Virus record (IMG/VR): IMGVR_UViG_3300036783_000180
Location: 32,001-96,000 of that record
Origin: a virus
Lineage: Duplodnaviria; Caudoviricetes
DNA: 64,000 nucleotides
Direction: 5' to 3' (one strand)
Shown here: in pieces, positions 7,281 through 47,993 of the stretch
Layout of the letters: every line of letters begins with the position of its first letter
Numbering within the stretch: the first letter of the stretch is position 1
Made by a program: the position numbers and the translations under genes
Notes under the pieces: model-generated
Told to the model about the DNA's origin: nothing
Databases searched by the model: none
The model's input: the letters and a program-made list of their open reading frames with translations, nothing else

Positions 7281-7313
7281 TATTAATTATATAAACAATA
7301 TTTCATTTACATA

Positions 7314-7357
7314 GAAGATTGTGGGTTCCCTTAGGGGAGCTCGCAATCTTCATTTTA
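7314..7357 (+). terminator. hairpin/terminator
   Basis: GAAGATTGTGGGTTCCC-TTAG-GGGAGCTCGCAATCTTC, GU pairs favour + strand. Confidence 0.6.
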
Positions 7358-7374
7358 TATCGAGGTGATAACAC

Positions 7375-9372: not shown

Positions 9373-9383
9373 GAGAAAATATC

Positions 9384-9836: not shown

Positions 9837-9862
9837 AAAAGAGTGCCATATGGCACTCTTTT
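9837..9862. terminator. bidirectional terminator between convergent genes
   Basis: perfect 26-bp palindrome AAAAGAGTGCCATATGGCACTCTTTT. Confidence 0.8.
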
Positions 9863-10130: not shown

Positions 10131-10135
10131 AAGAA

Positions 10136-10183
10136 AACCTCCTTTTCATGATTATATTTTCATTCTATCATAAAAAGGAGGTT
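10136..10183 (-). promoter_or_regulatory. holin SD-occluding hairpin containing extended -10 TGATAGAAT
   Basis: 16-bp arms 10168-83 and 10136-51; SD AAAGGAGG in 3' arm; -10 element at 10162-70. Confidence 0.75.
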
Positions 10184-10188
10184 GTGAA

Positions 10189-11070: not shown

Positions 11071-11072
11071 TT

Positions 11073-11786
11073 TTATTCAACTCCTTCCTGTTTGATACCT
11101 GCCGCTTTTTCTAATGCATCTACTTTTTCTTGTAATGTATTTACGATGTCCACTAAACTTTTCACCGTTTGTTTATCGGTAGCTGTCATAAAACCTGCTT
11201 TAGTAACAGTCGCGAATGCAGATCGGTGAACAGAACCACTCATTCTTATGTCACCCGCAAAATTTATGGTACCGTCAACTTCCAAGTTTCCACCAATACG
11301 TGTGTCACCAAGAACGCGTAATTCTTTCAGTCCATGTTGTTTAGGCTCCAGATGTTCGTCTAATAACATTCGGTTATTAGGAGGCACAACCACATATCCT
11401 AGTAAAGTGTGAGTTTCTTTTGGTTTCTCTACAGGTAATTCTTCTCTTTCAGCATTACCTGTTATAGAGATATAATCCACTACATCCGTACCGTGTATAT
11501 GAACTGCATATATCGCATCAATTCTATTATTGGTTGCATGATCATTAGGGTAGATATAGATAACCTCTTTCTTATCTTCATCTTCTATCGACACTCCTGT
11601 ATGCGTTATTAACAGGTTTTTTTCGTCTGTACCTTTTAGTAAACTGACATAACCACTCTTGTCAGTAAGTCCAAAACGATAACCTTTCATAATAGAACCA
11701 CCAAAGAAATCAGCAAAACGTTCGTTAAAATCTCGCGCTCGTAAGTCAGCTTTATAAGGGAAACTTACTTTTGCGGTTTGCATCAT
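11073..11786 (-). CDS. baseplate/short fibre protein (paralog of 11783..12619)
   Basis: RIDAIY...LLGYV motif shared with neighbour; beta-repeat C-terminus. Confidence 0.6.
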   Translation of the reverse strand: MMQTAKVSFPYKADLRARDFNERFADFFGGSIMKGYRFGLTDKSGYVSLLKGTDEKNLLITHTGVSIEDEDKKEVIYIYPNDHATNNRIDAIYAVHIHGTDVVDYISITGNAEREELPVEKPKETHTLLGYVVVPPNNRMLLDEHLEPKQHGLKELRVLGDTRIGGNLEVDGTINFAGDIRMSGSVHRSAFATVTKAGFMTATDKQTVKSLVDIVNTLQEKVDALEKAAGIKQEGVE

Positions 11787-12619
11787 ACCTCATCACCATC
11801 TTCTAAGTTGGAAAGCATTTTAGAGAAGACATTTCCGAACTCATCATATAGAAGTTGCCATTTGATATGCGTTTTAACTCGTTTACCTGTCGGATCATAA
11901 TACTTCGCTGATACGAATTGGTAACGTTTTTCTCCACCTACTGTATATTCAGGATTCAATAAACTTGTTTCGATATAAATAATGTTATCCGGAGTTGTGT
12001 ATGTGACATTTGTATAGACACCGATATCTTTATCGTAATCAGAACCGATGATATTTAATTTACCATCCATTGTACCACCCTGGAATGAAACCATTTCATT
12101 GAATACAACCGGGCCGTTAAATGTAGCAGAACCGTTAAACTGAGCATGACCAGCAACATTTAATTTACTGAATCCATAAGGAGTTGATTTTATATCTTCT
12201 TCTAAAATATAATCGGCTCTAGGGCGGATTTTAACATGACCTAAAAGTAAATGCGTATTAGGATTAGGGTTAGGTGGCGCTACATGTGTACCTGTGACAA
12301 CCACATATCTCGCTTCAGAACGTTCCCCGAAAATGTATTCCATGTAAATTGCATCTACACGATCTTTCGTGTTCCCTTTATTTGACGTAAGGAATAAAAC
12401 ATCAATCAAATCCCCTGTCTCTGTAACTTTAGCCCCAGAAGGAGTCACAGCGGAACTCGTATTAAACTTATCTCGCACCAAGTGTAGCGATAGTTTTTGT
12501 GAGCCTTTCTTCACTCTAAACCCTCGAATAATAGAAGGTCCAGTTATATCTAAGTAACGTTGGTTAATAACGTCAGATTCAGCTTTCGCCCTATACCGGA
12601 TGTCAATGATTTGTGTCAT
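11783..12619 (-). CDS. baseplate/short fibre protein
   Basis: RVDAIY...LLGHV; FNGSATFNGPVVFN beta repeats. Confidence 0.6.
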   Translation of the reverse strand: MTQIIDIRYRAKAESDVINQRYLDITGPSIIRGFRVKKGSQKLSLHLVRDKFNTSSAVTPSGAKVTETGDLIDVLFLTSNKGNTKDRVDAIYMEYIFGERSEARYVVVTGTHVAPPNPNPNTHLLLGHVKIRPRADYILEEDIKSTPYGFSKLNVAGHAQFNGSATFNGPVVFNEMVSFQGGTMDGKLNIIGSDYDKDIGVYTNVTYTTPDNIIYIETSLLNPEYTVGGEKRYQFVSAKYYDPTGKRVKTHIKWQLLYDEFGNVFSKMLSNLEDGDEV

Positions 12620-12636
12620 TATCCTTCACCTCTCCC

Positions 12637-13251
12637 TTACATAACTTCTTTAACAGGGAATGGTTCCTCTGTCGCTTGATTAAAGTTGAAGCGCCAAATA
12701 ATTTCAATTCCAGTACCTTTATCAACAGTCAAACGAACTGTTGGGAATGTAATGCGCGCAAACATGATTTTCTTTTTAGTTTCATCTTCTTCGAACATCA
12801 TAGCTGCTTCATTTACATCATCATTGATTTCGTCACAAATTAATGTTTCGCGGTACTCTAGTTCAGTTCTAGATAACTTTTTAGGTACTGATAATACCTT
12901 GTCTTTTAGGAAGATACCGATATCAATATCATTATCTTGTACAGGAATCGCATCTAGTGGATCACCCTTAGGAAACTTTAATGCGCCACCTTGTCCGTAA
13001 CGGATATATTTCAAATGCATTTTTTTTGCGCCGCTTAAAATATCTAACAACCCTTCTCGTCCTTGCATAACGATTAAGTTATTCTTTTTGAAGTCATCGA
13101 TGTATTGCTTCTCTCCATCCACCATTTTAAATTGACGGATACATACCGAACCTACTGCTCGGAAGCTTTCTTTTTTAGCCACTAGGGAACCTGCTCTCGC
13201 TCCGTCACCCATACCTAAAACTTCATTTTTATTAAATTCCATTTTTTGCAC
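12637..13251 (-). CDS. baseplate wedge / fibre-attachment protein
   Basis: NLIVMQG..YGQG..NEAAM..MFARITFP pattern typical of myophage collar/wedge proteins; synteny. Confidence 0.6.
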   Translation of the reverse strand: MQKMEFNKNEVLGMGDGARAGSLVAKKESFRAVGSVCIRQFKMVDGEKQYIDDFKKNNLIVMQGREGLLDILSGAKKMHLKYIRYGQGGALKFPKGDPLDAIPVQDNDIDIGIFLKDKVLSVPKKLSRTELEYRETLICDEINDDVNEAAMMFEEDETKKKIMFARITFPTVRLTVDKGTGIEIIWRFNFNQATEEPFPVKEVM

Positions 13252-13284
13252 GCCCTTTCAATTTGTTATCTATTATCATGATAC

Positions 13285-13325
13285 ACTTTTATCGGTGTCT
13301 TTGCATTATAGACACCGATAAAAGT
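13285..13325 (-). terminator. 16-bp inverted repeat (terminator or processing site)
   Basis: ACTTTTATCGGTGTCT-9nt-AGACACCGATAAAAGT between genes. Confidence 0.55.
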
Positions 13326-13329
13326 TAAA

Positions 13330-14916
13330 TCAGAATAACATTTCTAATGTTTTCATACTATTAAAGGAACCATTAACTGTAGCTCGTAGTCTAACACCTA
13401 TTATATCATTAGGTATATCTTTTACGACTCCTTCAGAGCGTTCTTTTACTGAAATGTTTTGTATTTTACCGAGTAATACTTCTTCCTTTGTTTCAGTCCT
13501 AATGCCATACACTTCAATTTCTGTTGTACCGTCATTGTTAGAATCGAACGATATTTTGTAGTCGTTACCTGTTGCACGTTGTGCAGTAGCTTTTCTAGGG
13601 ATACGAGGAAATGCATGTTCAGTCACTTGTACAACTTCAGCAGGTTTGTCGATTTCTTGGTCAAATGTATAACCAGAGTCCATTTTGAAACCACCATCTG
13701 TATGAACAAATCGATTTCTATCATAGAAGAAGTTACGAGTGTAGTATCCATCTGTATCGTATTTATCTAAAAGAGAACTACCCATCCATAAATGTTCCGC
13801 CCGTCCAATAGTCACCTTACTGATTTTTGCGGTATCTAGATTACGAACTGTCTCCACTACAGGTATCACTTGTCTACCTTTCACACTAGTGCCGATTAAT
13901 AAAGGTTCACGAAGTGCCTTAATGAACGTAACTTTCCTCTTATCTTGGAATTTACCTCTTTCCAATACAGGGAGATGAATTATTTTTCCAGCTTTAAACA
14001 CTACAGGTATTGGATCATTCCGAACAATATCGAAGAATACATTATAATCTGTACCCGCTTGCTTTGCTTCGTCTAGTAAGAATAGCAACATATTTAATCG
14101 CATCTTATCTTTAATTAAATTTTCCGGAAGTGTAGCGATAAACTTAGAAGGAGATAGCCATAAATTATCGTAGTACTTTCTCTTAGCTGGAGACAACGAC
14201 TTAGAATACATATCTTGAATAGCGAAAGTTTCCCAACCGATTGCCTTACTAATACCTTCCGATATTTCTCTAATTGTTAGATTACTATTCAACGCATAAT
14301 CTAAGCCTTCCAAATAATCTCTATACTTATGTTTAGGGACTAAGGCACCTACTTGTACATCGTATTCAGTTCCCCAATTCTTCTCTAGCAAACGCTCGTC
14401 TATTTTAATATGCATAGCATGCAAATGAGTCCGAACTCGTTCATGCTGCATCATAAACTCAGGCATTAAGTATAGTCTATTATCTCGAATGAAATAATGT
14501 TCATATAACTTAAGTGGTTCTTTCGCTGTAAAAGTCGGTTTCAATACCATAGAAACGATTGTTGCGTTACGTAAATTCGGGTCATTGAACTCGAATGTTG
14601 TAAATCTACCTTGCCGATCTAACGTATTTACCACTTCTTCAAATTCTAACTCACGAAGCAAGAAAGCCTCGTGAGTTGAATAAACACAATCAGTAATTTC
14701 GATTTTTGCATATGGAAGAGTGTACAAAGTATGCGCAGTCGGCAAGTTAGTATTAGCCATCGTGTAGCGATATTCGTATTCTACATACTCTAGAATCTTC
14801 TTATAAATCCCTAACATTTCAGCCAATCTAGGATTCTCAGGCATGTATGTTTTATAGAAGGAAGACATTTGCCATAACGTATCGTCTACGTCGTATGGTT
14901 TCTTCATACTACTCAC
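13330..14916 (-). CDS. baseplate wedge subunit
   Basis: follows the J-like gene; AKQAGT resembles the KPAG motif of gpI/gp7-type wedges. Confidence 0.55.
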   Translation of the reverse strand: MSSMKKPYDVDDTLWQMSSFYKTYMPENPRLAEMLGIYKKILEYVEYEYRYTMANTNLPTAHTLYTLPYAKIEITDCVYSTHEAFLLRELEFEEVVNTLDRQGRFTTFEFNDPNLRNATIVSMVLKPTFTAKEPLKLYEHYFIRDNRLYLMPEFMMQHERVRTHLHAMHIKIDERLLEKNWGTEYDVQVGALVPKHKYRDYLEGLDYALNSNLTIREISEGISKAIGWETFAIQDMYSKSLSPAKRKYYDNLWLSPSKFIATLPENLIKDKMRLNMLLFLLDEAKQAGTDYNVFFDIVRNDPIPVVFKAGKIIHLPVLERGKFQDKRKVTFIKALREPLLIGTSVKGRQVIPVVETVRNLDTAKISKVTIGRAEHLWMGSSLLDKYDTDGYYTRNFFYDRNRFVHTDGGFKMDSGYTFDQEIDKPAEVVQVTEHAFPRIPRKATAQRATGNDYKISFDSNNDGTTEIEVYGIRTETKEEVLLGKIQNISVKERSEGVVKDIPNDIIGVRLRATVNGSFNSMKTLEMLF

Positions 14917-14922
14917 CTCTTG

Positions 14923-17004
14923 TTATAGTTTTAAATCAATTTCTTTGTTGTTGTTTGTATACTTACGTAAGAAATCGATTAAGAAATTCATCGAAATGTC
15001 TTCCGTTTTTAATGCCGAAACAAATGTAACGACAGCTGCAAACACAGAGAAATCAATCCACTTTTTGCCTTTATAATCAAGGTCTATATTTGTGATGATT
15101 TCTCCATTTTCATCACGATCAGCTGGGCCATTTACAATGTTTTGTCCTGTCCATAACATCTGTTGCACTTCATCTTTGCTATATTGCTTATACTCGTATA
15201 CATTTAAATTGGAAAGTTCGAAGAACTCATTTTCTTGTACAGTTGTTACCGTAGGAGAAAGCATTTTAGCAACTAAGGCATTCGCAATATAACCTCTAGC
15301 CTTACGGATATGATTAACTGGAATACTCTCATCCGTAACTTCTTTTGCGGCTTCCTTTTCAAGAATAGCGAATATATCTTCTACGTTTTGTTGATAAGTG
15401 AAAGCATGCATAATATCGAAAAAGTCATACGTTGTCACGCGGTCTTTATAACGATCAATGATCGCTTTCAAAGGTTTACTTAGCGAACATACAGATTGAA
15501 TAACAAATCGTCTTTTCTCATCCAATGAATGATACAAGTATCTATTGTCGTTTTCTAACAATAGAAATTGCGGCGGTAAATCGATATAATCTACAAGTTG
15601 CTCTGATTCATCGACACCTATATTAACCGTATCTACAAACGGAGCTAATACATCACTGTACTGTAATTCATCACCCATACGAATTGAATTTACCGCATCG
15701 TAACCTTGTCTAAACATTGTATTTCTTTCTTTATCTCGAATACCAGAGCCAGCTTTCAATCGAACTGTCATTGAGAAATGTAAAAACTTTTTATTCGCTT
15801 CCTTGATTTTAACATCTTCAGCTGGTGGTCTTTCATCGTATTGATTCATGTGATCATCAATAATTTTAATCAATGCATTCTTTCTATATCTAATTTGCAC
15901 GAGTGAACCATTTTGTAATTCATCATGCTCCATTATGACAACAGATTTTTCTTGCAATGTACCCATTGTTTCAAAGCTTTCGTCTTTTTCTAAATGGAAG
16001 TCGCGGATGAATAATTTACTTTGATTCACATCAGGGTCATCATTTGAACCGAACGGATCATACAATTTCACACTGATAATATCCCAAACAGGTTTCTCGG
16101 TTAATGTAGCTTCATAGTGATTTCGTTTTGGGTTGAACTTTACTTCTACATTTTCCTCGTATTCTTCGAGTTGTTTACCGCGAATATACAAGTCAACTTT
16201 CTGTCCCCAATGTACGTCACGTATCGTTTGAATGAATGGACCATCAGGTTTATACTGACCGATAATATCTCGTTTCATAAGAGGATGGCCGTAACCTACA
16301 ACACGAACTTCTTCTACATTCTCGAAGCTTTTTAGGTAACGTTCGTACCCACGAGTGTTACCTAAGTTCGGCGCTGCAACACTTTCTTTTACGCGGATAG
16401 CTAATTCTTCGTTCGTTTCCTTATCTTTTCCTCCAGCAAATCTCGCTTCGTTCTTTACTTCATCTAAGAACGGAAGGTCTGTACCTGTAGTGTTGATGTC
16501 ACCTTCTTCTGCATTGTATTCTTTACCAGGTGCTTCAGCTATTGCAAGTACAACGATTTTATAACGGAATGTATCAGGTTCATACATATCAACCAATTGG
16601 TCTTCAGTGTACATTCTCGTTACATCAGTTACGTATGTTAAACCTTGTTTAGAACGAACTTCCGTTCTTTCAGGAATTGTTACAACGCCACTCTTAGGAA
16701 TGTCATTGAAATAAAACGCAACGAAGCCTTTAGCTTTTTCACCAAGATTTCGATACACAGTTTTTCTAGCAGCGAGTTCATCCATTTCTTCTTCTGTCAT
16801 GACATCAGCGTTATCCAAACTTTGTGTCAACTTCACTCTGTCTGCATAGTCGATAAGTGGTACCATCATCTTTACATGTGGCATACCTATCATTTCCATA
16901 AACGGACCATTATCTCTTGTGTCTACATTAGGAAATGCGGCTTTCGTAAGTTCTTTTACATAATTTATCAGCATTTCTTCTTTGTCAGATAAACGGTTTA
17001 CCAT
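14923..17004 (-). CDS. baseplate J-like wedge protein
   Basis: IPERTEV, AEAPGKEYN, FAGGKDKETNEEL motifs. Confidence 0.85.
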   Translation of the reverse strand: MVNRLSDKEEMLINYVKELTKAAFPNVDTRDNGPFMEMIGMPHVKMMVPLIDYADRVKLTQSLDNADVMTEEEMDELAARKTVYRNLGEKAKGFVAFYFNDIPKSGVVTIPERTEVRSKQGLTYVTDVTRMYTEDQLVDMYEPDTFRYKIVVLAIAEAPGKEYNAEEGDINTTGTDLPFLDEVKNEARFAGGKDKETNEELAIRVKESVAAPNLGNTRGYERYLKSFENVEEVRVVGYGHPLMKRDIIGQYKPDGPFIQTIRDVHWGQKVDLYIRGKQLEEYEENVEVKFNPKRNHYEATLTEKPVWDIISVKLYDPFGSNDDPDVNQSKLFIRDFHLEKDESFETMGTLQEKSVVIMEHDELQNGSLVQIRYRKNALIKIIDDHMNQYDERPPAEDVKIKEANKKFLHFSMTVRLKAGSGIRDKERNTMFRQGYDAVNSIRMGDELQYSDVLAPFVDTVNIGVDESEQLVDYIDLPPQFLLLENDNRYLYHSLDEKRRFVIQSVCSLSKPLKAIIDRYKDRVTTYDFFDIMHAFTYQQNVEDIFAILEKEAAKEVTDESIPVNHIRKARGYIANALVAKMLSPTVTTVQENEFFELSNLNVYEYKQYSKDEVQQMLWTGQNIVNGPADRDENGEIITNIDLDYKGKKWIDFSVFAAVVTFVSALKTEDISMNFLIDFLRKYTNNNKEIDLKL

Positions 17005-35710: not shown

Positions 35711-36118
35711 TTATTCTGCATCAGCAGGAGTTACTTCAAACCCAAAGTGAATTAGTACAGCATCCTTCACTTCTTGTTCTTTTGTACGGCTATGAACACC
35801 TTCTAGTTCAATTGCATTATCCTTTAAGAACTTAAGTAAATCTTTCTTACCCATGCCCTCGATTTCTTCTTTTGTTAAAGTGACAGGTTCGGCGGGCGTA
35901 ATAACTTCTTCTGTATCCTCAACCTCTTCCGCAACTACATCTTCATCAATTGAGATAGCACCTTGTTCTTTCAAGAAATACGCAGTATCTAAGTCTGCTT
36001 GTTTCTTGAATGTCACAGGTTGATTAATTCCCGGTTGCAATACCGTTCGAGCTAAAGCTAACGCAATTTTCGTTTCGTTCTTAATCCATAATGTGTGTTT
36101 GATTTTTTTATTTGCCAT
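35711..36118 (-). CDS. hypothetical protein with C-terminal HeH/Rho-N-like motif
   Basis: IEGMGKKDLLKFLKDNAIEL..TKEQEV; acidic linker. Confidence 0.55.
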   Translation of the reverse strand: MANKKIKHTLWIKNETKIALALARTVLQPGINQPVTFKKQADLDTAYFLKEQGAISIDEDVVAEEVEDTEEVITPAEPVTLTKEEIEGMGKKDLLKFLKDNAIELEGVHSRTKEQEVKDAVLIHFGFEVTPADAE

Positions 36119-36139
36119 ATTAAAAACACCTCCATCGTC

Positions 36140-36148
36140 ATTATAGCA
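36140..36148 (-). promoter_or_regulatory. extended -10 promoter TGCTATAAT
   Basis: consensus TGnTATAAT between the MCP terminator and the SD of 36118. Confidence 0.65.
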
Positions 36149-36149
36149 T

Positions 36150-36188
36150 AAGAAAAAGCGAGACTCGTTAGAAGTCCCGCTTTTTCTT
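36150..36188 (-). terminator. terminator after major capsid gene
   Basis: AAGAAAAAGCGGGACT..AGTCTCGCTTTTTCTT on - strand. Confidence 0.8.
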
Positions 36189-36211
36189 TATATTATATGG
36201 AATTAGTTAAC

Positions 36212-37138
36212 TTAAGGTTTTTTAGGACCTGTAGCACCAAGTTCTAAACGAGCAACTGCTTTCGCATCGTGAATGAACATTCCGATGAACTCGTAAGCCA
36301 TTACTTCTTTATCCTTAGTTTCAGGAATACGTTGAACATCCATTGTGATGTCACGTAGGATTGGCATACGTCCAAGTACTTCTTTTGGAGAAAGACCGTA
36401 AACGTATTTCTCTTCAACGATGATACCTGTAACCATTTTAATGCCGCCCCAAATTGTAGGAAGCTCACCAGTTTCTAACACTGTACGTTGAGAAACTTCG
36501 TCAAGATCATCTTCGCCCCATAGTAAGAAGTCATCGTAAGTAGCTGGGTTCATTAAGTACGCAGCGAACGCAACGTTGTTACGAGAGAAGATTTTCTTAA
36601 CAGATAGCAAACCAGCTTTTGTGATAGCTGTTTCAGCTTGGAAAGCTTGTTGTTTTGGAGAGTTGTCGATAAGCATATTTACAACACGTAAGAATTCTTT
36701 ATCTTCAACTTCTGCCATAGCTTGTCCAGCTTTTTCTTGTGTACGACGCATTAAGTCGTAAGGTTGAGTGTCAAGATCCCATTGAGTAATCGTTAAGCGT
36801 GGTGTAGCGATTTCGTAGAAATCAACTTTAACAGTGTCGCCTTTGATGATTAAACTTGGAACTTCACCTTCACGTGGCATTACAGCAGCTGTAGCGTCAA
36901 CATCTTTAGAGTAAGTAACGTAAACCTCTTCGTTAAAACGAGTTAAGTCTTCAGGAGAAACGTCAGTTACAGTGATAACGTCACGTACGAAACCTTCGTA
37001 GTCACGAACAACTTGGATAAATTCAGGCATTTTCGTTGCCGCATAACGCTCGAATCCTTCCGATTGTTCAAGCAATTGTTTTAAGTCATATTCTTCTTCG
37101 CGCATTTCGTTACCCATGCGTGGTTCATGTAATGGCAT
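36212..37138 (-). CDS. major capsid protein (HK97 fold)
   Basis: 308 aa; REGEVP, AMAEVEDKEFL, YLMNPATY.D, IWGGIK; strongly biased codons; terminator follows. Confidence 0.85.
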   Translation of the reverse strand: MPLHEPRMGNEMREEEYDLKQLLEQSEGFERYAATKMPEFIQVVRDYEGFVRDVITVTDVSPEDLTRFNEEVYVTYSKDVDATAAVMPREGEVPSLIIKGDTVKVDFYEIATPRLTITQWDLDTQPYDLMRRTQEKAGQAMAEVEDKEFLRVVNMLIDNSPKQQAFQAETAITKAGLLSVKKIFSRNNVAFAAYLMNPATYDDFLLWGEDDLDEVSQRTVLETGELPTIWGGIKMVTGIIVEEKYVYGLSPKEVLGRMPILRDITMDVQRIPETKDKEVMAYEFIGMFIHDAKAVARLELGATGPKKP

Positions 37139-37171
37139 TTTAATAGCCCCTTTCTGTATCCGTTATTTTAA

Positions 37172-37618
37172 TTAGCCTTCAATACGTAGGTATTGATATT
37201 CCTGAGAAGGAATACGTGTTACAGTGCCGACAATTAAATGTGCAGCAGTTTCAGGTTTAGCAGGAACTAATAATCCACCAGCTTTTGTTGTAACAGCTTG
37301 ACCATTTTTGAATGAAGCTGTTTTATCGAATTGGTCAGTACCTAATTCGTAGTTACCTTTAAGACAAGCAATCATTCCAACGCGGCTAACGTTATCGCGA
37401 CCTTCTAAAAGTTCCATTTGTAATCCGCGACCTTTTCCAGCCCAACGTTCGTTTAATGTTGGGTATGCAGGACGAGTACCGTCAGCGTATTCCCATTCAC
37501 CTTCGTCGTTTAAGTGGAAAAACTGTCCAGCTTGGATTTCGCCTACTGTTTCGCTAACGCGGTGACCAGATAAGCGGTGTGCTTTTTGATGATAAATGTT
37601 TTGTCTATCAAGTGCCAT
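37172..37618 (-). CDS. capsid decoration/cement protein
   Basis: 148 aa just before MCP; TDQFD..GQAV..GGLL..IVGTV. Confidence 0.7.
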   Translation of the reverse strand: MALDRQNIYHQKAHRLSGHRVSETVGEIQAGQFFHLNDEGEWEYADGTRPAYPTLNERWAGKGRGLQMELLEGRDNVSRVGMIACLKGNYELGTDQFDKTASFKNGQAVTTKAGGLLVPAKPETAAHLIVGTVTRIPSQEYQYLRIEG

Positions 37619-37639
37619 TTTGTATATCCTCCCTTTGAT

Positions 37640-38845
37640 TTAATGTTTGTTTAATTCTCGTGCTGCTTCGCCGATAGTTTGTCCTCGTTTGGATAAACCT
37701 CTCTCGACTGGCGCTGCATAAGAATCGAATCCATTACTATTATAATCTACTAAAATGTCCAAACTTGCAAGCCCTTCTTCTTGATTCTTCGCTTGTTTGA
37801 TTAACATATTGTAAAGATTTAATACATCTTCACTAGCAGTTTTCAATTCACCCAAACGTTCGTCATATTGAGATTGCTTAATCATGCCCAATTCTAGCAT
37901 ATCGCCGATCATATCGAAAGCTACTTTTTCGCGCTCTTTTGTAAAGACTGATTCTTTATAAGAAGAAAATTCAGAAGCAGTTTTATCTAATTCTCTTCGA
38001 ACACTAGATAATTCACTTTGCACTTCCGCAGTCTTCTTACGCTCATAAGAAGCTTCCTTTCGCAATAGTTGATTCTCATTTGTTAAGCTACCAATCTCAG
38101 CAGCACTCTTTTCTAGACTGTCTTCGAGTTGGGCAATCTTGTTCATTGAAGCTTGTTTGTCCATCTCTAAAGACAAAATTTCCTCTTCTAATATACCACG
38201 AACTTCCATACCGTTGCCATTACTTTCCGCAACTTTCGTCGTTCCTGATTCCTCTTCCTCTTTTCCATACATCTTTTCACCGACATATGCAGTAGCTAAG
38301 AATGGAGATACAACCTTTGTTGTATTCGTAACAGGTCCCATTAATGAAGGTCTTCTATCTTGACCACCCGAACCTTCAAATAACTGACTCACGCTACCAT
38401 CAGGGTTAACTTTTTCACCAACTGCAACACCTCGCCCTGCTTCTCCCGTAGGAGTCGAGAAGAACTTACCCCTTGCGGTTTCAGGTGTTTTACCCGCTAA
38501 CTTTTTACCCGCCCAAGTATCAGCGGCTACTGTTTTTTCTTTTAAATACGCCATACCGTCTTTTGCTTTTTGACTGATTTTATCACCTTTAGGAAGAAAT
38601 TTTAAAGCGCCCATACCTGCATCTAGTACAAGTCCATTCGACTCTCTATCCAATTCTTCCCTCTGTATTTTTTTTATTTTTTCTGCATCATACATTCGAA
38701 CAGGACCATTCACTGCGCCTAACTCTCGTCCGTTGTTCATAACGAATTTACCCATATTCTTACCACGACTAGCCCCGCCAAAAAGCTTTCCGAAGAAAGC
38801 TTTTTTTTCTAAAAAGGCTTGGCCGCTTAAGTCTACATTACTCAT
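37640..38845 (-). CDS. scaffold/head-internal protein with KxA repeats
   Basis: C-terminal coiled coil; about 11 KxA motifs; upstream of decoration and MCP genes. Confidence 0.65.
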   Translation of the reverse strand: MSNVDLSGQAFLEKKAFFGKLFGGASRGKNMGKFVMNNGRELGAVNGPVRMYDAEKIKKIQREELDRESNGLVLDAGMGALKFLPKGDKISQKAKDGMAYLKEKTVAADTWAGKKLAGKTPETARGKFFSTPTGEAGRGVAVGEKVNPDGSVSQLFEGSGGQDRRPSLMGPVTNTTKVVSPFLATAYVGEKMYGKEEEESGTTKVAESNGNGMEVRGILEEEILSLEMDKQASMNKIAQLEDSLEKSAAEIGSLTNENQLLRKEASYERKKTAEVQSELSSVRRELDKTASEFSSYKESVFTKEREKVAFDMIGDMLELGMIKQSQYDERLGELKTASEDVLNLYNMLIKQAKNQEEGLASLDILVDYNSNGFDSYAAPVERGLSKRGQTIGEAARELNKH

Positions 38846-38878
38846 GAGATGCGCCTCCCTTCTTTTCCCTATTATACT

Positions 38879-39562
38879 TTAGTTCAAGTATGTGCGTAAT
38901 CCATCAATTAAAACTTTAGAGTCTTTTATGTCATACGCAATAGAAGGGTTCGCTCTGTCTTTCATCAAACTTACAATCGCATCAGCGATTTTCTGTTTTG
39001 TATGAGGTCGTAACATTGTTGTTAAATCGCCAGCTTGTTTTACAATCGTTAATTTAAGACGGTCAGCTTCATAAGAACTCAACATTAATTCTTGCATCAA
39101 TCTCTCTTTAACGTATTCTAGTAAATCTTTATTACTCACTACTTTCATGTTAACCATGCCAAATGAACTCTTTAATGCATTGGGATTCGTAGAAAGTTCT
39201 GTACCCATCGCATCTACAATTCCGTCAATAATCTTACCTTGATCTCCTTGAAATCGATTTTGAATTTTCTCGGATTGCGTAATAACACGAGAAGAAAATT
39301 CATGAGCAACGCCATCAGATACACCCAATCGTTGAGCGATTAAATTTTTTGTACTGTCAAACAAATCGATACCTCTAGAAACAAAAGCTTCTTTTGTCAT
39401 AGTATTTTCACTAGCTGTTTTTTCAAGCGAGTCTGGAACTAGACTCGCTTGTTTTTCTAAATACTCTCGTAAACCTTTGTTTTCTGTATGCGATAATTTA
39501 TCTAAAGATAACTCTTCTTTCTTCGCACGATTTGACTTCATTAAAACATCATAATTTCGCAT
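38879..39562 (-). CDS. putative head-internal protein with KxA motifs
   Basis: LEKQAS, LEKTAS, MTKEAF; between protease and scaffold. Confidence 0.55.
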   Translation of the reverse strand: MRNYDVLMKSNRAKKEELSLDKLSHTENKGLREYLEKQASLVPDSLEKTASENTMTKEAFVSRGIDLFDSTKNLIAQRLGVSDGVAHEFSSRVITQSEKIQNRFQGDQGKIIDGIVDAMGTELSTNPNALKSSFGMVNMKVVSNKDLLEYVKERLMQELMLSSYEADRLKLTIVKQAGDLTTMLRPHTKQKIADAIVSLMKDRANPSIAYDIKDSKVLIDGLRTYLN

Positions 39563-42032
39563 CCATATTCACTCCATTCTGTTCTAATGTGTGTTTCACA
39601 CTCTCAGGATTTAATTGACTTTTAGGTTTAGCACCACTTGAGTTGAGAAGCTTTCCGAATACAAACGCATCTACCATTCGTCCAGGGATAGAACCTGCAA
39701 ATGATCTATTGTCAGCGATTGTATCTAAAACTAATGTGTTAAGAAAATCATTTGAAGCTTCTTTGATTTGACCATGTGTATATTCAGCCGCAGACTTTAA
39801 GAATAATCCTTTCGCATTACTCGGAAGACCTGCATGACCTAACAATTCTTTCGCTTCTTTTTCCATATTACCACTAGATAATAATGTAGCAGTTTTTAAA
39901 AGCGCCACTTCATTAGCGTTCAATCCATTTTCAGAAGCGAACTTAGTTAGGAACTCTTCGTTAAATGCGCTGAAATTACCAGAAGGATACACAGACGCTT
40001 CTTTAACTAATTCTTCGAACTCTTGCGCCGCACTCTTTGTAATAGCACTCTTCGCTTTATTAACTGCTTCAGGGAAATCTTTCATAACGACTTTACTTAC
40101 AGGCTTACCTGCAATTACGCCACCTAGTGTAAGCATTCCCGGACGGTCTGCAATGAAGTTTTCAGCATCAGATAAGTTTCTTCCGTTCTCTCGTCTGTTT
40201 TTTTCGAATGCACTAGCACCGTAAACAAGAGGGGCAGTGATACCTAGTAACTTCATTGTGCCTAGTCCACCTGCACGTTTGTTTTGAACGATACGAGCCG
40301 CTTCTTCTTGTTGTAGACGTTTACCTTCTGCAACGCCATTATTATACAATAACGCCTCATTCATACCGTTAAATGGATTAGTGAATGCGGCAGTTTTTTC
40401 TAATTCAGAATCAAGGTATTGCGCCATTTTAATTAATCGTGTTACACGAATTTTAGGACGCATATCTTGATAACTACGGTAAGCGAGTGTGCCTAAAATA
40501 TCACCTAGAGATTTAGGATTAACCATCATGTCGATATCTCGTCTTACATCGCTTCCTCCAACTAATGAATGCCCACCTGTTAGCACCGCAGCTAAACGCG
40601 GAATTAAATAATCAGCACCTTGACTACGAGATTCTAAGAATGGAGACATTTGACTACGAATGACTTTTACTACCTTCGTAGATGGGATATCATCTAAGTC
40701 ATCATGAACATTAATGCCACCCATGAATCCGAATGGATCAGAATTAAAACCTTTCATATCATGAGCAGTGCCATCATATAATTCAGTTAATCCCGATGGA
40801 TCGTTAATGTCAGGTAATTGTTCTGTAGCAAGAGAAGTTACTTTAAATGCTTTCGCTACATCAGACGGGAATACATCTTTGCTATCAGAATCCGATAAAG
40901 ATAATTCAGGTCTGTAATGAGCGTCAGTTAATCCAGAAAGAATCGTATGCAATTCACCTGGGAAGAATTCAATCCCCAATGTTTCTGCAATTACTAAGAA
41001 TGTAGAGAATACTTTATGCTCAGATAAACCTTCTTCTTCAGCTAACGATTTTAGCGTCCCTGCAATGTTCATTAACGATTCATCATCGAAACGTTTTTCT
41101 GTTAAGAATTTAACGATACGTAACATTTCTCCGCCTTTTTCCATATCCTCTTCGGTAGGAATAGAAGAAACGTTTACGATTTTACCTGTTAACTCTTTTT
41201 CTAATTCCGCTAGCTTTTGGAACATAGGGTTTGTGTGAGAAGCCACTTTTTCGATATCCCTTTGAACTAAAGGATGCAGTACTTTATCATGACTAGCCAC
41301 TTTATCCATTTCATAATCACTTAAACGAATGAAGCGAGTTTTTCCGTTTGCAGAAGCTACTTTTTGGAATGCAGTTTTAGATTGACCTTGACCAGAATCA
41401 AAAACAACTAAAGCTTTTGCAACACGCTCAGCGCCATTTAGTACCGCAGAAGAGTCGTGGAATTTCGGCTTGTGGTTAATTTCATAAACTCGTTCTCCAT
41501 TACCTAAGAACTGCATACGGTATTGTCTGATATGGTCACAGAATTCAGTTTGTTTACGAGCTTTATTACCGCAAACAGAGCAGATTGTGTAAGGCACTCG
41601 GCAACCCATAGAAACGTCAGTTAAGTATCCTTTTTCGAAACCACGCACAATTTCAGGAGCGATTTTTTTATCGATACTTTTGAAGATTTCTACACATTTT
41701 AAAACAGGGTTCCAACGAACAGAAATGATTTCACCAATTGCTTGTTCAATCTTTTTGTTTTCGTGGTTTTTAAATACATGACCATCTTTGAAAGTTTCAT
41801 ATGTGTCGATTAATTCACTTTCAGGGAAGTAGTCACCGTTTTTGTTCGGGCCATAATATTCGCCTGCACTGATAATCCGCACCCATAAGTACATGAAATC
41901 AGGATCGAACTCAAAGCCATCAGGTAAATCTACATTTGTACTTGCCACTTTTTCTAAGTGTTCAGCACTTGCTACATTGTACAATTCGTACTCAGAAATT
42001 TGAGAAGGGATTGATTTGTCAAAACCGTTCAC
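39549..42032 (-). CDS. prohead maturation protease with long KxA-rich extension
   Basis: NKNGDYFP, VFKNH, DVSMGC, CSVCG..FCDH, FHDSSAV (HK97/assemblin-like His/Ser protease plus Cys/His cluster); GTG 42032 after AAAGGAG. Confidence 0.75.
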   Translation of the reverse strand: MNGFDKSIPSQISEYELYNVASAEHLEKVASTNVDLPDGFEFDPDFMYLWVRIISAGEYYGPNKNGDYFPESELIDTYETFKDGHVFKNHENKKIEQAIGEIISVRWNPVLKCVEIFKSIDKKIAPEIVRGFEKGYLTDVSMGCRVPYTICSVCGNKARKQTEFCDHIRQYRMQFLGNGERVYEINHKPKFHDSSAVLNGAERVAKALVVFDSGQGQSKTAFQKVASANGKTRFIRLSDYEMDKVASHDKVLHPLVQRDIEKVASHTNPMFQKLAELEKELTGKIVNVSSIPTEEDMEKGGEMLRIVKFLTEKRFDDESLMNIAGTLKSLAEEEGLSEHKVFSTFLVIAETLGIEFFPGELHTILSGLTDAHYRPELSLSDSDSKDVFPSDVAKAFKVTSLATEQLPDINDPSGLTELYDGTAHDMKGFNSDPFGFMGGINVHDDLDDIPSTKVVKVIRSQMSPFLESRSQGADYLIPRLAAVLTGGHSLVGGSDVRRDIDMMVNPKSLGDILGTLAYRSYQDMRPKIRVTRLIKMAQYLDSELEKTAAFTNPFNGMNEALLYNNGVAEGKRLQQEEAARIVQNKRAGGLGTMKLLGITAPLVYGASAFEKNRRENGRNLSDAENFIADRPGMLTLGGVIAGKPVSKVVMKDFPEAVNKAKSAITKSAAQEFEELVKEASVYPSGNFSAFNEEFLTKFASENGLNANEVALLKTATLLSSGNMEKEAKELLGHAGLPSNAKGLFLKSAAEYTHGQIKEASNDFLNTLVLDTIADNRSFAGSIPGRMVDAFVFGKLLNSSGAKPKSQLNPESVKHTLEQNGVNMDAKL

Positions 42033-42063
42033 AGCATTCACTCCTTTATTTTGTTCTAAAAAA

Positions 42064-42072
42064 AGTATAGCA
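42064..42072 (-). promoter_or_regulatory. extended -10 promoter TGCTATACT heading the morphogenesis cluster
   Basis: near-consensus element about 30 bp upstream of protease start. Confidence 0.6.
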
Positions 42073-42189
42073 CACGTTGTATAGCAGGAGAACAAAAGAA
42101 AAACCGCCCCAAAGGGCAGTTCTCATTTTAATCTGAAAAGCAAAAAAATAAAGCCACGCCCCGAAGGGCGCAGCATATGTTTTTTTATC

Positions 42190-46842: not shown

Positions 46843-46878
46843 TAAAAGAGTAGCCCTTCGGGGGGCTACTCTTTTATT
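46841..46878. terminator. bidirectional terminator
   Basis: AATAAAAGAGTAGCCC-loop-GGGCTACTCTTTTATT between convergent genes. Confidence 0.85.
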
Positions 46879-47842
46879 TATTTCGTTTCATTTCTTCAGC
46901 TATTTTAATCAAACCAAAACTAATTTCATTCGCTTGTTGATTAAATCCCGGTTCCATTTGCGGAGGAACGTAAGGTGTAGGCATTTGAGGTTGTGGCATA
47001 TTATCCAACAATTGTTGGTCTTTCTTTTGTTGTTGCTCTTGCATCGCTTGTTGCGTACCAACTCCAACCAATCCGATGCCAGCAGTACCACGAGCCAGTC
47101 GTTGGTCCATTGTTTTTTGTTTTAAATTCTTCTCAGCAGCACGAACTTGATCATTGATTTTATTTGTAGTGTCCGATATTTTTTGACTCTCCTGTGTCAT
47201 ACGAAGAGTCTTTTCAGAAGAACGCCAGTTAGGATCTAACTTGTGAGCTGTATCGTAATAAGACCTTTGCGCTGCATCGAAACTCTTCACACCTTGTTGA
47301 TGTGTCGCACTAATATTTTTAATGTTAGCCAGTTCTTGCGTAGCCTTCTTTTTTCCTGTCCCTAATAGTCCAGCACCAAAACGTTTACCAACGTTAAGAA
47401 GACCACTTACAAAGGCTTTCTTAGGCATACCAACATTCAGTTTCTTTTCGTGCATTTCTTTATCCCAAGGACCATTCTTTTCAGTCACTTCACCAACGTA
47501 AGCTTTAATAGAATCTTCCCCTGCATGTTTGAATCCTAGTGTCCGGTGATAACCATCAGCTATTTTCAAAGTACCGTCAGGTAACTTAGTTAACACGACA
47601 GGTTCCATCGGTTTTCCATCTTTAACCGCTTGAGCAATACCTTTTACTTTATCCATTTCCCTAGCGCCACCCGGACGTTTTGCCATCTTAATATCAGCTA
47701 GAGGAACTGACTTTTGCAACGACCATTTTGCATCTTTTACCCATTGCAAACAATCAGTTGGATAATTCTCTTTCAAATAATCAAATACAGTTTGTGTTAT
47801 TTTCTGTTTTTGTTCTTCTGCAATCTTAATTAAACTCATCAT
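46874..47842 (-). CDS. ParB/Srx-domain protein carrying KxA motifs (putative virion cargo)
   Basis: EPVVL..IADGYHR; LIKIAEE at both termini; start after GAGGTG. Confidence 0.7.
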   Translation of the reverse strand: MMSLIKIAEEQKQKITQTVFDYLKENYPTDCLQWVKDAKWSLQKSVPLADIKMAKRPGGAREMDKVKGIAQAVKDGKPMEPVVLTKLPDGTLKIADGYHRTLGFKHAGEDSIKAYVGEVTEKNGPWDKEMHEKKLNVGMPKKAFVSGLLNVGKRFGAGLLGTGKKKATQELANIKNISATHQQGVKSFDAAQRSYYDTAHKLDPNWRSSEKTLRMTQESQKISDTTNKINDQVRAAEKNLKQKTMDQRLARGTAGIGLVGVGTQQAMQEQQQKKDQQLLDNMPQPQMPTPYVPPQMEPGFNQQANEISFGLIKIAEEMKRNK

Positions 47843-47849
47843 CCACACC

Positions 47850-47993
47850 TCACTTAGATGGCACAACGACTGCATCTTTGTTAGCAGCAGCTATTTTTTG
47901 AGCTTCAACAAGCGGTAAGAATGATTCAATAACTTTCCCCTCTTTTACAACCTCATACATTTCTTGTTCTACTCCGTATTTCTCCATAGCCAT
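47850..47993 (-). CDS. 47-aa protein MAMEKYGVEQEMYEVVKEG... (not in ORF track)
   Basis: GAAAGGGTG SD; TGTTATACT at 48027-35; stop overlaps SD of next gene. Confidence 0.7.
   Translation of the reverse strand: MAMEKYGVEQEMYEVVKEGKVIESFLPLVEAQKIAAANKDAVVVPSK

What the first reader, a model, noticed from the sequence alone, without database searches (positions are those of the whole stretch)
37640..42032. A hydrophobic-x-K-x-A motif saturates the prohead protease and head proteins: candidate maturation/cargo code
Seen: about 30 copies by eye in three adjacent proteins. Protease: LEKVAS, FQKVAS, MDKVAS, IEKVAS, FQKLAE, LIKMAQ, LEKTAA, ITKSAA, LVKEAS, LTKFAS, LLKTAT, MEKEAK, FLKSAA, QIKEAS. 38879..39562: LEKQAS, LEKTAS, MTKEAF, IVKQAG. 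Scaffold: LEKKAF, MDKQAS, MNKIAQ, LEKSAA, LRKEAS, LDKTAS, REKVAF, ELKTAS, LIKQAK. It appears scarce in the capsid, sheath, tube and baseplate proteins. Established: T4 gp21 and phiKZ gp175 cut head proteins at short recurring motifs ending in Glu. Inference: this protease cuts at KxA instead, destroying the scaffold and processing itself as a ~830-aa polyprotein. The motif would then predict virion-internal proteins genome-wide.
Basis: partly seen in the sequence, partly recalled or inferred. Interest (0 to 1): 0.85.

Follow-up and report, generated by a model that had tools for sequence, protein, structure and literature searches.

The report
Lys-x-Ala cutting code of head protease
The head-assembly proteins of this 175-kb Bacillus-type phage carry many copies of a short, conserved hydrophobic-x-Lys-x-Ala signal. 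It is most likely where the phage's own T4/herpesvirus-like capsid protease cuts them, a cutting rule found in none of the papers I could search and not yet shown by experiment.

Summary
K-x-A-[S/A] occurs 17 times in the three proteins (1.4 expected). [LMIFV]-x-K-x-A occurs 24 times (2.7 expected). Shifted, reversed, charge-swapped, T4-type, phiKZ-type and herpes-type patterns are not enriched.

The K and A are invariant or nearly so in 27 homologues at 29-82% identity, while their flanks vary. The same enrichment recurs in five related loci, in phage G, Vibrio phage D69 and Salmonella phage Arash, and in 134 further cluster representatives.

[quoted passage not shown] Motifs bracket this domain.

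Genome-wide, 58 of 101 strict motifs lie in nine proteins. These form two clusters: the protease-scaffold cluster in the window, and a second one around the portal and terminase genes outside it.

Best reading (0.65): this is the protease's recognition and cleavage code, cutting probably after Ala. No cleavage has been measured. A cut after Lys, or a binding-only motif, remains possible.

This scan has already reported the same code in at least eight other genomes. I found no paper describing it.

The parts
39549..42032 (-). Protease polyprotein gene, 827 aa from GTG 42032. The open frame extends to TTG 42095, and residue numbers in this report use that 848-aa frame; subtract 21 for the 827-aa protein.
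   Evidence: RBS AAAGGAG lies 6 nt upstream of GTG 42032, after two terminator-like hairpins and a TGCTATACT -10-like box. The closest homologue P0001 (96% identity) is 827 aa. 98 homologues found.
41391..41918 (-). Protease domain (residues 60-235) with the gp21/assemblin fold. Invariant His111 (41763-41765) and Ser162 (41610-41612, in DVSMGC). Cys-x-x-Cys...Cys-x-His insert at 41532-41582.
   Evidence: AF2 model pLDDT 83. Foldseek top hits are herpesvirus proteases and T4 gp21, probability 0.99. VIA-align gives T4 gp21 5jbl_A Z 10.9, rmsd 2.6 A over 127 residues, and herpes proteases Z 7-10. phrog_18299 'head maturation protease' E 6.6e-11. Invariant columns. 36% identity to phage G gp19, E 9e-42.
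41940..41957 (-). LEKVAS (residues 47-52), the motif just upstream of the protease domain; candidate N-terminal self-processing site.
   Evidence: K49 and A51 are invariant in 27 homologues. pLDDT below 50. It aligns with LVKTAA of phage G gp19.
41205..41369 (-). Linker after the protease domain with four motifs: FQKVAS, MDKVAS, IEKVAS, FQKLAE (residues 243-297). Candidate release sites.
   Evidence: K245/A247 and K294/A296 are invariant; K265 and K283 are 24 of 27. Residues 235-267 and 281-286 have pLDDT below 50. Phage G gp19 has LEKVAS and LLKIAS at the equivalent place.
40422..41207 (-). Confidently predicted helical domain (residues 297-558) that would be released as a piece of about 262 aa; function unknown.
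   Evidence: pLDDT mostly 80-94. It is bounded by FQKLAE and LIKMAQ/LEKTAA.
40386..40436 (-). LIKMAQ and LEKTAA (residues 554-570) at the end of the helical domain.
   Evidence: K567 and A569 are invariant. Residues 563-591 have pLDDT below 50.
39753..40043 (-). C-terminal motif cluster (residues 685-781): ITKSAA, LVKEAS, LTKFAS, LLKTAT, MEKEAK, FLKSAA, QIKEAS.
   Evidence: K734 and A736 are 26 of 27. Sites 685-701 lie in low-confidence segments. Sites 716-781 lie in helices with pLDDT 72-87, so their accessibility is uncertain.
39552..39755 (-). 68-aa C-terminal tail after the last motif, with the conserved PGRxVDAFVF segment. Candidate capsid-binding tail, by analogy with the tail removed at the herpesvirus M-site.
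   Evidence: Conserved segment in the consensus. The analogy rests on PMC4498786. This assignment is inference only.
38879..39562 (-). 227-aa head-module protein with an N-terminal motif cluster LEKQAS, LEKTAS, MTKEAF (39383-39460) and IVKQAG at residues 173-178. Candidate substrate with a propeptide.
   Evidence: Syntenic homologues in L001-L004 all carry 1-3 motifs in their N-terminal 75 residues, but at shifting positions.
37640..38845 (-). 401-aa scaffold-like protein. Leader motif LEKKAF is at 38795-38812 and a cluster of eight motifs at 37787-38164 (residues 228-353).
   Evidence: FLEKxAxF at the N-terminus and MDKQAS (K230 invariant) are conserved in L001-L003. Its position between protease and capsid genes is syntenic in all relatives. 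There is no similarity to the protease's C-terminal extension beyond the motif.
37172..37618 (-). 148-aa protein just upstream of the capsid gene, with a single FDKTAS (37313-37330). Weak candidate only.
   Evidence: One site (shuffle test 177 of 5000). It is kept in L003 (YDKDAS) but absent in L001 and L002.
36212..37138 (-). Major capsid protein, 308 aa, with no motif. It serves as the negative reference.
   Evidence: phrog_2522 E 1.7e-24. Homologous to phage G gp27, PDB 6wkk, E 2.8e-25. 0 K.A[SA] and 0 h.K.A.
46874..47875 (-). ParB-like protein with LIKIAE near both ends and MPKKAF in the middle. Candidate packaged and processed protein.
Evidence: Sequence. phrog_1033 ParB-like, E 4.1e-5. 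Not tested further.

Best explanation
h-x-K-x-A, in fuller form [L/M/F]-[E]-K-[V/I/L/T]-A-[S/A/E], is the substrate-recognition motif of this phage's prohead (capsid-maturation) serine protease. The protease is the N-terminal gp21/assemblin-fold domain of an 827-aa polyprotein. Inferred mechanism: the polyprotein, the scaffold, the 227-aa protein and a set of proteins encoded next to the portal and terminase genes are co-assembled into the procapsid. The protease then cuts at these motifs, most likely after the Ala, so that P5 = hydrophobic, P3 = Lys, P1 = Ala and P1' = Ser or another small residue. This frees the protease from its own flanks, in the way herpesvirus pUL26 is cut at its R-site, and chops the scaffold and the leaders of internal proteins. 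Shown here: the motif's enrichment, specificity and conservation, its family-wide spread, the protease fold and the invariant His and Ser. Inferred: that cleavage happens, which bond is cut, and what becomes of the fragments.
For: (1) Enrichment and specificity: K.A[SA] 17 vs 1.4 expected and h.K.A 24 vs 2.7 in the three proteins. Register-shifted, reversed and charge-swapped patterns are not enriched.
(2) Conservation typical of a short linear motif: K49/A51, K245/A247, K294/A296 and K567/A569 are invariant in 27 homologues at 29-82% identity, with variable flanks. In the fast-evolving 227-aa family the motifs persist but move.
(3) Logo from 1236 K.A instances in 82 homologues: information sits at P5 (0.97 bit), P4, P2 and P1', and vanishes beyond P2'. 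This is the one-sided footprint expected of a protease site.
(4) The enzyme is there: Z 10.9 to T4 gp21 and Z 7-10 to herpes proteases. His111 and Ser162 are invariant and 51 residues apart, against gp21 H85/S140.
(5) Placement: motifs bracket the protease domain. Seven of the 14 lie in segments with pLDDT below 50, which make up 29% of the chain. Phage G gp19 has the same before-and-after arrangement.
(6) Motif and protease family occur together. Five metagenomic or genomic relatives show it, as do phage G and Vibrio D69 and Salmonella Arash. In 134 further representatives at the 50%-identity cluster level the strict motif is 783 observed vs 87 expected. The family has 2453 clusters at E<=1e-10.
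(7) Genome-wide, 58 of 101 strict motifs fall in 9 proteins (14.8 per 1000 aa, against 0.86 elsewhere). All but one of the nine (a 60-aa ORF) lie in the two head-gene clusters. The portal has MVKTAS at residues 30-35.
(8) For the cut after Ala: assemblin cuts after Ala (YLQA-T and VQA-S in PrV; PMC4498786). Ala is replaced only by small residues such as Ser at some sites. With P1 = Ala, all three conserved residues fall on P1, P3 and P5.
Against: No cleavage product has been observed for this phage or for any relative in the papers I could read. The Arash virion proteome reports high coverage (80-100%) for the motif-rich proteins Gp220-225, which does not suggest loss of large parts, although those coverage figures look unreliable. 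Five sites (residues 716-781) lie in confidently predicted helices. The motif's hydrophobic positions also fit the a and d positions of a heptad repeat. The canonical herpes pattern [VLI]-x-A-[ST] is absent (0 vs 3.0 expected) and P3 is Lys, so the resemblance to assemblin sites is limited to Ala-Ser. Reading h-x-K as P3-P2-P1 matches T4's h-x-E geometry just as well, so the scissile bond is open.
Confidence: 0.65

Rival explanations
1. The same protease and the same motif, but the bond cut is after Lys: h-x-K|x-A, with P3 = hydrophobic and P1 = Lys. This would be a charge-reversed copy of T4's (L/I)-x-E| rule, with Ala at P2'.
For: T4 gp21 is the best structural match (Z 10.9), and its sites have a hydrophobic P3 and a charged P1 (I/LxE). 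The strongest flanking information is at the position two residues before Lys (0.97 bit). Lys is sometimes replaced by Arg (sites 556 and 718).
Against: It would require an invariant P2' Ala. I know of no precedent for that in this fold (from memory). P1' would then be mostly beta-branched or bulky (V, I, L, T), whereas T4 and herpes sites have small P1' residues. Ala tolerates only small substitutes such as Ser, which fits a shallow S1 pocket better.
Confidence: 0.2
2. K-x-A is a docking motif that is not cut. It would be a multivalent tag binding the inner capsid surface, the scaffold core or the protease, and loading proteins into the procapsid.
For: The motif is multi-copy in scaffold-like and internal-type proteins, and occurs in short N-terminal leaders (scaffold LEKKAF, 598-aa protein LLKLAG, ParB-like LIKIAE). 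Arash motif-rich proteins are found in virions at high stated coverage. Several sites lie in predicted helices.
Against: The motifs sit exactly at the borders of the protease domain in low-confidence linkers, here and in phage G. The information footprint is one-sided. The motif co-occurs across the family with a gp21/assemblin-fold enzyme whose characterised relatives all use short repeated cleavage motifs. Targeting and cleavage can also coexist, as in the T4 capsid-targeting sequence.
Confidence: 0.12
3. The pattern is a by-product of composition or helical periodicity in Lys-, Ala- and Glu-rich coiled-coil head proteins and has no specific function.
For: The proteins are rich in K, A, E and L and largely helical. 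h-x-K-h-A fits the a and d positions of a heptad.
Against: Composition-preserving shuffles never reach the observed counts. Shifted, reversed or charge-swapped patterns are at or below expectation in the same proteins. K and A are invariant across 27 homologues while their neighbours vary. The helical tape-measure protein (1071 aa) has only 4 h.K.A and 1 K.A[SA].
Confidence: 0.03

Closest known systems
Phage T4 prohead protease gp21 with its (L/I)-x-E| sites and the capsid-targeting leaders of internal proteins
   Same: Same protease fold (5jbl_A Z 10.9). His and Ser at similar spacing. A short motif repeated many times in scaffold, internal proteins and the protease itself. Short N-terminal leaders ending in the motif.
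   Different: The motif is h-x-K-x-A rather than h-x-E, and [LI].E is not enriched here (17 vs 17.3). The protease is the head of an 827-aa polyprotein, not a protein of about 212 aa. It has a Cys-x-x-Cys...Cys-x-His insert. The major capsid protein carries no site.
Herpesvirus assemblin (pUL26: protease-linker-scaffold, cut at R- and M-sites after Ala)
   Same: Same fold (Z 7-10). N-terminal protease fused to a long C-terminal extension. Candidate release sites right after the protease domain. A probable P1 Ala followed by Ser. A terminal tail left after the last site (PMC4498786).
   Different: P3 is Lys, not Val/Leu/Ile, and [VLI]-x-A-[ST] is absent. There are 14 candidate sites rather than 2. 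The scaffold gene is separate and unrelated in sequence, not a nested in-frame gene. The third catalytic residue is unclear. The enzyme is bacterial-viral and has a zinc-site-like insert.
phiKZ gp175 and SPN3US gp245 giant-phage prohead proteases with (S/A/G)-x-E| sites
   Same: A gp21-like protease that processes many head and internal proteins at a short motif. The motif has been used to predict substrates across the proteome (PMC5694885, PMC10052503).
   Different: A Glu-ending motif there, against K-x-A here; [SAG].E is not enriched here (31 vs 30.2). There is no detectable sequence relationship beyond the fold.
Bacillus phage G gp19 (annotated head maturation protease) and its head module
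   Same: True homologue: 36% identity, E 9e-42. The major capsid protein is homologous to gp27, PDB 6wkk. K-x-A lies before and after the protease domain and in gp7, gp11 and the portal gp14.
   Different: gp19 is a stand-alone 300-aa protease without the 600-aa extension. The phage G papers I could read describe no cleavage sites.

Membership tests
gp21/assemblin-fold prohead serine proteases (T4 gp21, herpesvirus assemblin, phiKZ gp175) | The characteristic protease fold | tested here: met
   AF2 model pLDDT 83. All top Foldseek hits are herpes proteases and T4 gp21, probability 0.99. VIA-align Z 10.9 (rmsd 2.6 A, 127 residues) to 5jbl_A, and Z 7-10 to herpes proteases, well above the unrelated MCE-domain rows at Z about 5.
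gp21/assemblin-fold prohead serine proteases (T4 gp21, herpesvirus assemblin, phiKZ gp175) | Conserved catalytic His and Ser, in that order | tested here: met
   His111 and Ser162 (in DVSMGC) are invariant in 42 sequences, some down to 28% identity. They are 51 residues apart, against H85/S140 in gp21. Structural superposition of the residues themselves was not available.
gp21/assemblin-fold prohead serine proteases (T4 gp21, herpesvirus assemblin, phiKZ gp175) | Third member of the catalytic triad (His in herpesviruses) | tested here: inconclusive
   Asp214 is invariant. His188 is nearly invariant but belongs to the Cys-x-x-Cys...Cys-x-His cluster. No model coordinates were available to decide.
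gp21/assemblin-fold prohead serine proteases (T4 gp21, herpesvirus assemblin, phiKZ gp175) | Encoded in the head module, next to the scaffold and major capsid genes | tested here: met
   The gene order protease, 227 aa, scaffold-like, 148 aa, capsid protein is conserved in L001-L004.
gp21/assemblin-fold prohead serine proteases (T4 gp21, herpesvirus assemblin, phiKZ gp175) | Match to a curated sequence family | tested here: inconclusive
   No Pfam family at E<=0.01. PHROG phrog_18299 'head maturation protease' E 6.6e-11, and phrog_2774 (unknown function) E 3.5e-24.
gp21/assemblin-fold prohead serine proteases (T4 gp21, herpesvirus assemblin, phiKZ gp175) | Proteolytic activity on head proteins | not testable with these tools
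   This needs mass spectrometry or a cleavage assay.
T4-type or phiKZ-type Glu-ending cleavage code | (L/I)-x-E or (S/A/G)-x-E enriched in scaffold and internal proteins | tested here: not met
   [LI].E 17 vs 17.3 expected, [LI].E[AGS] 3 vs 4.2 and [SAG].E 31 vs 30.2 in the three proteins. h.E.A is 0.51x expectation in the nine.
Herpesvirus pUL26-type protease-scaffold system | N-terminal protease fused to a C-terminal extension, with a release site at the end of the protease domain | tested here: inconclusive
   The architecture is met: domain at residues 60-235, followed by four motifs at 243-297 in a low-confidence linker. Cleavage itself is untested.
Herpesvirus pUL26-type protease-scaffold system | Scaffold expressed as a nested in-frame gene sharing the C-terminus of the protease precursor | tested here: not met
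   The scaffold-like protein is a separate downstream gene. It has no significant similarity to the protease's C-terminal 583 residues (best E 1.5).
Herpesvirus pUL26-type protease-scaffold system | Site consensus (V/L/I)-x-A|S | tested here: not met
   [VLI].A[ST] is 0 vs 3.0 expected. Only the Ala-Ser part is shared, and P3 is Lys.

The most novel reading that the evidence does not exclude
A very large family of phage head proteases (about 2,400 or more clusters at 50% identity, including cultured phages G, Arash and D69) has kept the herpesvirus-like habit of cutting after Ala, not after Glu as in every characterised T4-type phage protease. It reads Lys at P3 and a hydrophobic residue at P5. 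The same h-x-K-x-A signal would also serve as a load-then-cut tag. A simple motif count would then predict the internal and ejected head proteome, here including a ParB-like protein, a WYL-domain protein and several Gly- or Gln-rich proteins next to the portal and terminase genes.
Probability: 0.35. Interest if true: 0.75.

Novelty: new variant of a known kind. Interest (0 to 1): 0.6.

Why it matters
Prohead proteases and their repeated cleavage motifs are the handle by which head-internal and injected proteins were identified in T4, phiKZ and SPN3US. Every characterised phage enzyme of this fold cuts after Glu. A K-x-A rule would matter in three ways.

1. It would give a one-line predictor of virion-internal proteins for thousands of uncultured large phages whose head proteins are all 'hypothetical'.
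2. It would link phage and herpesvirus proteases by specificity (P1 Ala) as well as by fold.
3. It would say what bacterial immune sensors of phage protease activity would need to mimic. CBASS activation loops cut by T4 gp21 at an LPE motif are one example (bioRxiv 10.64898/2026.03.04.709575).

It can be tested at once in cultured phages (G, Arash, D69).

Tried and rejected
1. Complex prediction of the protease domain with the motif-rich N-terminus of the 227-aa protein gave no verdict (score 0.30, mark 0.32). It is not used as evidence either way.
2. Literature: I searched for prohead-protease cleavage motifs, 0305phi8-36, phage G, Arash, assemblin/Ala-Ser and KXA/K-X-A/Lys-X-Ala. No paper describing this motif turned up. 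The phage G structure paper (PMC7316594) and Cheng et al. 2004 (PMC2279824) are not held. The phage G 2025 paper has no supplement held as text.
3. Paralogy was rejected: the protease's C-terminal extension and the scaffold share nothing beyond the motif.
4. Recent duplication was rejected: only 14-30-nt DNA repeats at about 80% identity.
5. Megablast of 36000-42100 against the phage collection found no match.
6. The 148-aa protein shows no BLAST similarity to the phage G decoration protein gp26.
7. ESM Atlas search with the 897-aa motif-rich protein gave no usable hit.
8. Pfam found nothing for seven of the eight head-module proteins. It also found nothing for seven of the eight proteins scanned from the portal/terminase cluster; the exception is the WYL domain of the 132-aa protein.
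9. Mycobacteriophage Cali gp93 has a homologous protease domain at the head of a 1286-aa protein. It shows K-x-A mostly in its last 230 residues and no clear h-x-K-x-A-[SA] pattern, so I did not count it as support.

Full report
WHAT IS THERE. The window is part of a single 175,348-bp phage-like contig (window = contig 32001-96000). GC content is about 37%. It carries a myovirus-type structural module on the minus strand.

The finding covers three adjacent genes:
- A long ORF at 39549-42095. Its real start is most likely GTG 42032, which has an AAAGGAG ribosome-binding site 6 nt upstream and follows two terminator-like hairpins downstream of the SSB gene. The nearest homologue is 827 aa.
- A 227-aa gene at 38879-39562.
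- A 401-aa scaffold-like gene at 37640-38845.

These are followed by a 148-aa gene and the major capsid protein at 36212-37138. The capsid protein matches phrog_2522 and is homologous to phage G gp27, PDB 6wkk, E 2.8e-25. Residue numbers below use the 848-aa frame; subtract 21 for the 827-aa protein.

- Pooled over the three proteins, K.A[SA] is 17 vs 1.4 expected and [LMIFV].K.A is 24 vs 2.7.
- The capsid, sheath, tube and baseplate proteins have none or about the chance number.
- The signal is specific to this exact spacing and these residues. In the motif-rich proteins, KA, K..A, K...A, A.K, E.A, R.A, D.A, h.E.A and A.K.h are all at or below expectation. K.A is 2.4x and h.K.A is 6.5x. In the other 239 ORFs every pattern is about 1.0.
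- T4-type [LI].E (17 vs 17.3), phiKZ-type [SAG].E (31 vs 30.2) and canonical herpes-type [VLI].A[ST] (0 vs 3.0) are not enriched.
- The copies are not recent duplications. DNA repeats are only 14-30 nt at about 80% identity, and the protease's C-terminal part and the scaffold share nothing but the motif.

CONSERVATION. A word-based search found 98 homologues of the long protein, about 60 of them full-length at 42-54% identity. Two come from Priestia megaterium assemblies.
- In an alignment of 27 homologues (29-82% identity), the Lys and Ala of four sites (49/51, 245/247, 294/296, 567/569) are invariant. Three more sites are nearly so, while the flanking residues vary.
- A logo from 1236 K.A instances in 82 homologues gives P5 L/M/F (0.97 bit), P4 E, P2 V/I/L/T, P1' S/E/A and P2' E/D, with nothing beyond (positions named as if the cut follows Ala).
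- Five related loci keep the gene order protease, ~220-250 aa protein, scaffold-like protein, ~150 aa protein, capsid protein. In each, the motif is concentrated in the first three.
- In the scaffold family, the N-terminal FLEKxAxF and the MDKxAS site are conserved.
- In the fast-evolving 227-aa family, motifs persist in the N-terminal 75 residues but change position. That is typical of a short linear motif in a flexible region.
- Cultured relatives show the same pattern. Phage G gp19 has LVKTAA before and LEKVAS/LLKIAS after its protease domain, and gp7, gp11 and the portal gp14 carry motifs. Vibrio phage D69 and Salmonella phage Arash have 8-11 K.A in head-module proteins of 255-311 aa, and L[TV]KEAG at residues 25-30 of their capsid proteins.
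- An exhaustive search with the protease domain finds 3983 clusters at 50% identity (2453 at E<=1e-10). In 134 new representatives the strict motif is 783 observed vs 87 expected.

THE ENZYME. Residues about 60-235 give an AF2 model with pLDDT 83.
- The best structural matches are T4 gp21 (5jbl_A, Z 10.9, rmsd 2.6 A, 127 residues) and herpesvirus proteases (Z 7-10). These stand clearly above unrelated rows at Z about 5.
- His111 and Ser162 (in DVSMGC) are invariant in 42 sequences and 51 residues apart, against H85/S140 in gp21.
- Pfam has no match. PHROG 18299 'head maturation protease' matches at E 6.6e-11.
- An invariant Cys172-x-x-Cys175...Cys186-x-His188 cluster follows the catalytic Ser. 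It is also present in phage G gp19 and mycobacteriophage Cali gp93.

ANATOMY OF THE POLYPROTEIN. In a full-length AF2 model (mean pLDDT 66), the motifs at residues 47, 243, 263, 281, 565, 685 and 696 fall in segments with pLDDT below 50, between folded parts. These seven of 14 sites lie in the 29% of the chain that is of low confidence. The motifs at 716-781 lie in helices with pLDDT 72-87.

Cutting after every candidate Ala would give:
- a 30-residue leader;
- a 196-residue protease (52-247);
- three peptides of 11-20 residues;
- a 262-residue helical domain;
- an 11-residue peptide;
- a 120-residue piece;
- six peptides of 11-21 residues;
- a conserved 68-residue tail.

This mirrors herpesvirus pUL26, which has an N-terminal protease, a release site at the end of the domain, a scaffold-like extension and a terminal tail removed at the M-site, with cuts after Ala (PMC4498786). 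Here, however, the scaffold is a separate, unrelated gene.

Of 101 strict motifs in 248 ORFs (54,142 aa; 38.6 expected from shuffles), 58 lie in nine proteins: 14.8 per 1000 aa, against 0.86 elsewhere.
- Three of the nine are the proteins of the finding.
- Five lie in a second minus-strand cluster at contig 3438-16810, outside the window. They are 132 (WYL domain), 598, 299, 447 and 897 aa. The ninth is a 60-aa ORF (contig 107549-107731, beyond the window's end) with two motifs.
- These surround the large terminase (phrog_675, E 3.3e-50) and lie next to the portal. A 609-aa protein in the same cluster has 3 K.A[SA] and 3 h.K.A but was not flagged by this test.
- None of the cluster proteins scanned has a known family apart from the WYL domain, and several have low-complexity stretches rich in Gly or in Ala, Gln and Glu.
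- The portal has MVKTAS at residues 30-35, if the contig is read as circular.
- A ParB-like protein in the window (46874-47875) carries LIKIAE near both ends.

So the motif picks out a coherent set of proteins. This fits head-internal proteins, but their presence in virions is untested here.

In Arash, the motif-rich neighbours of the protease (Gp218, 220-225) were all detected in purified particles. However, 116 of that phage's proteins were detected, so this is weak support. The high stated coverage also argues against wholesale loss of fragments.

MECHANISM AND ITS RIVALS. The most economical reading is that h-x-K-x-A is the protease's recognition and cleavage motif (0.65). I favour a cut after Ala, at about 60% given that cleavage occurs at all, for four reasons:
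- Assemblin cuts after Ala.
- Ala is replaced only by small residues at some sites.
- The three conserved residues then occupy P1, P3 and P5, the alternating positions that (from memory) this fold reads.
- The next residue is mostly small.

A cut after Lys would copy T4's h-x-E| geometry with reversed charge, and cannot be excluded (0.2). A binding-only tag (0.12) and a compositional artefact (0.03) are less likely, for the reasons given under the rivals. No experiment bearing on cleavage was found in any paper I could read.

RELATION TO EARLIER WORK OF THIS SCAN. After I had reached this reading, a look-up showed that the scan has already followed up the same K-x-A code in at least eight other genomes, with the same conclusion and the same missing experiment. 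Other readers also noted it on this same stretch.

My tests here were made independently of those reports: the shuffles, control patterns, alignments, fold search, genome-wide count, and the counts in phages G, Arash and D69. They add the specificity controls, the bimodal genome-wide distribution and the domain map of this 827-aa polyprotein. They do not add the decisive evidence.

VERDICT. I rate it a new variant of a known kind. It is already recurrent within this scan and, as far as I could search, not in the literature.

Noticed in passing
window 41532-41582 (-): An invariant Cys-x-x-Cys...Cys-x-His cluster (CSVCGNKARKQTEFCDH) sits just after the catalytic Ser of the protease domain. It is also present in phage G gp19 and mycobacteriophage Cali gp93. 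It looks like a zinc site, which I do not recall in T4 gp21 or assemblin.
   Followed up: partly
contig 3438-16810 (outside the window; L006:3438-16810, - strand): A second cluster of K-x-A-rich proteins of unknown family (132 aa with a WYL domain, 598, 299, 447 and 897 aa) surrounds the large terminase gene (L006:8381-9997) and lies next to the portal. A 609-aa protein at L006:1532-3361 also has 3 K.A[SA]. The 598-aa protein has 12 h-x-K-x-A and a long low-complexity stretch rich in Ala, Gln and Glu.
   Followed up: partly
window 46874-47875 (-): A ParB-like protein (phrog_1033, E 4.1e-5) has LIKIAE near both termini and MPKKAF between the ParB-like half and a Gly-rich half. It is a candidate packaged protein. 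ParB-like domains of the DdrB type are known in head-packaged polyvalent proteins (PMC5512222).
   Followed up: partly
contig ends (L006:3-1529 and contig 175348 backwards): The portal gene runs off the start of the contig and continues in frame at its end, giving 626 aa if the two are joined. The assembly is therefore circular or circularly permuted. The portal has MVKTAS at residues 30-35.
   Followed up: partly
L008:9896-13756 (Mycobacterium phage Cali gp93): Cali gp93 is annotated 'tape measure', but it begins with a homologue of this protease domain (His, Ser and the Cys cluster conserved) and lies two genes upstream of the major head protein. It is more likely a protease-scaffold polyprotein of 1286 aa.
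   Followed up: partly
window 42099-42174 and 42055-42063 (-): Two terminator-like hairpins follow the SSB gene. A TGCTATACT extended -10-like box without a clear -35 then precedes the protease gene, suggesting a separate late transcription unit for the head module.
   Followed up: no
L005 (metagenomic contig, 159 kb): A distant relative encodes the protease homologue beside an RNA polymerase beta'-like gene. K-x-A-[SA] occurs in about a dozen neighbouring proteins, for example 8 in a 430-aa protein and 6 in a 264-aa protein. The set of marked proteins can therefore be much larger in jumbo-like relatives.
   Followed up: no
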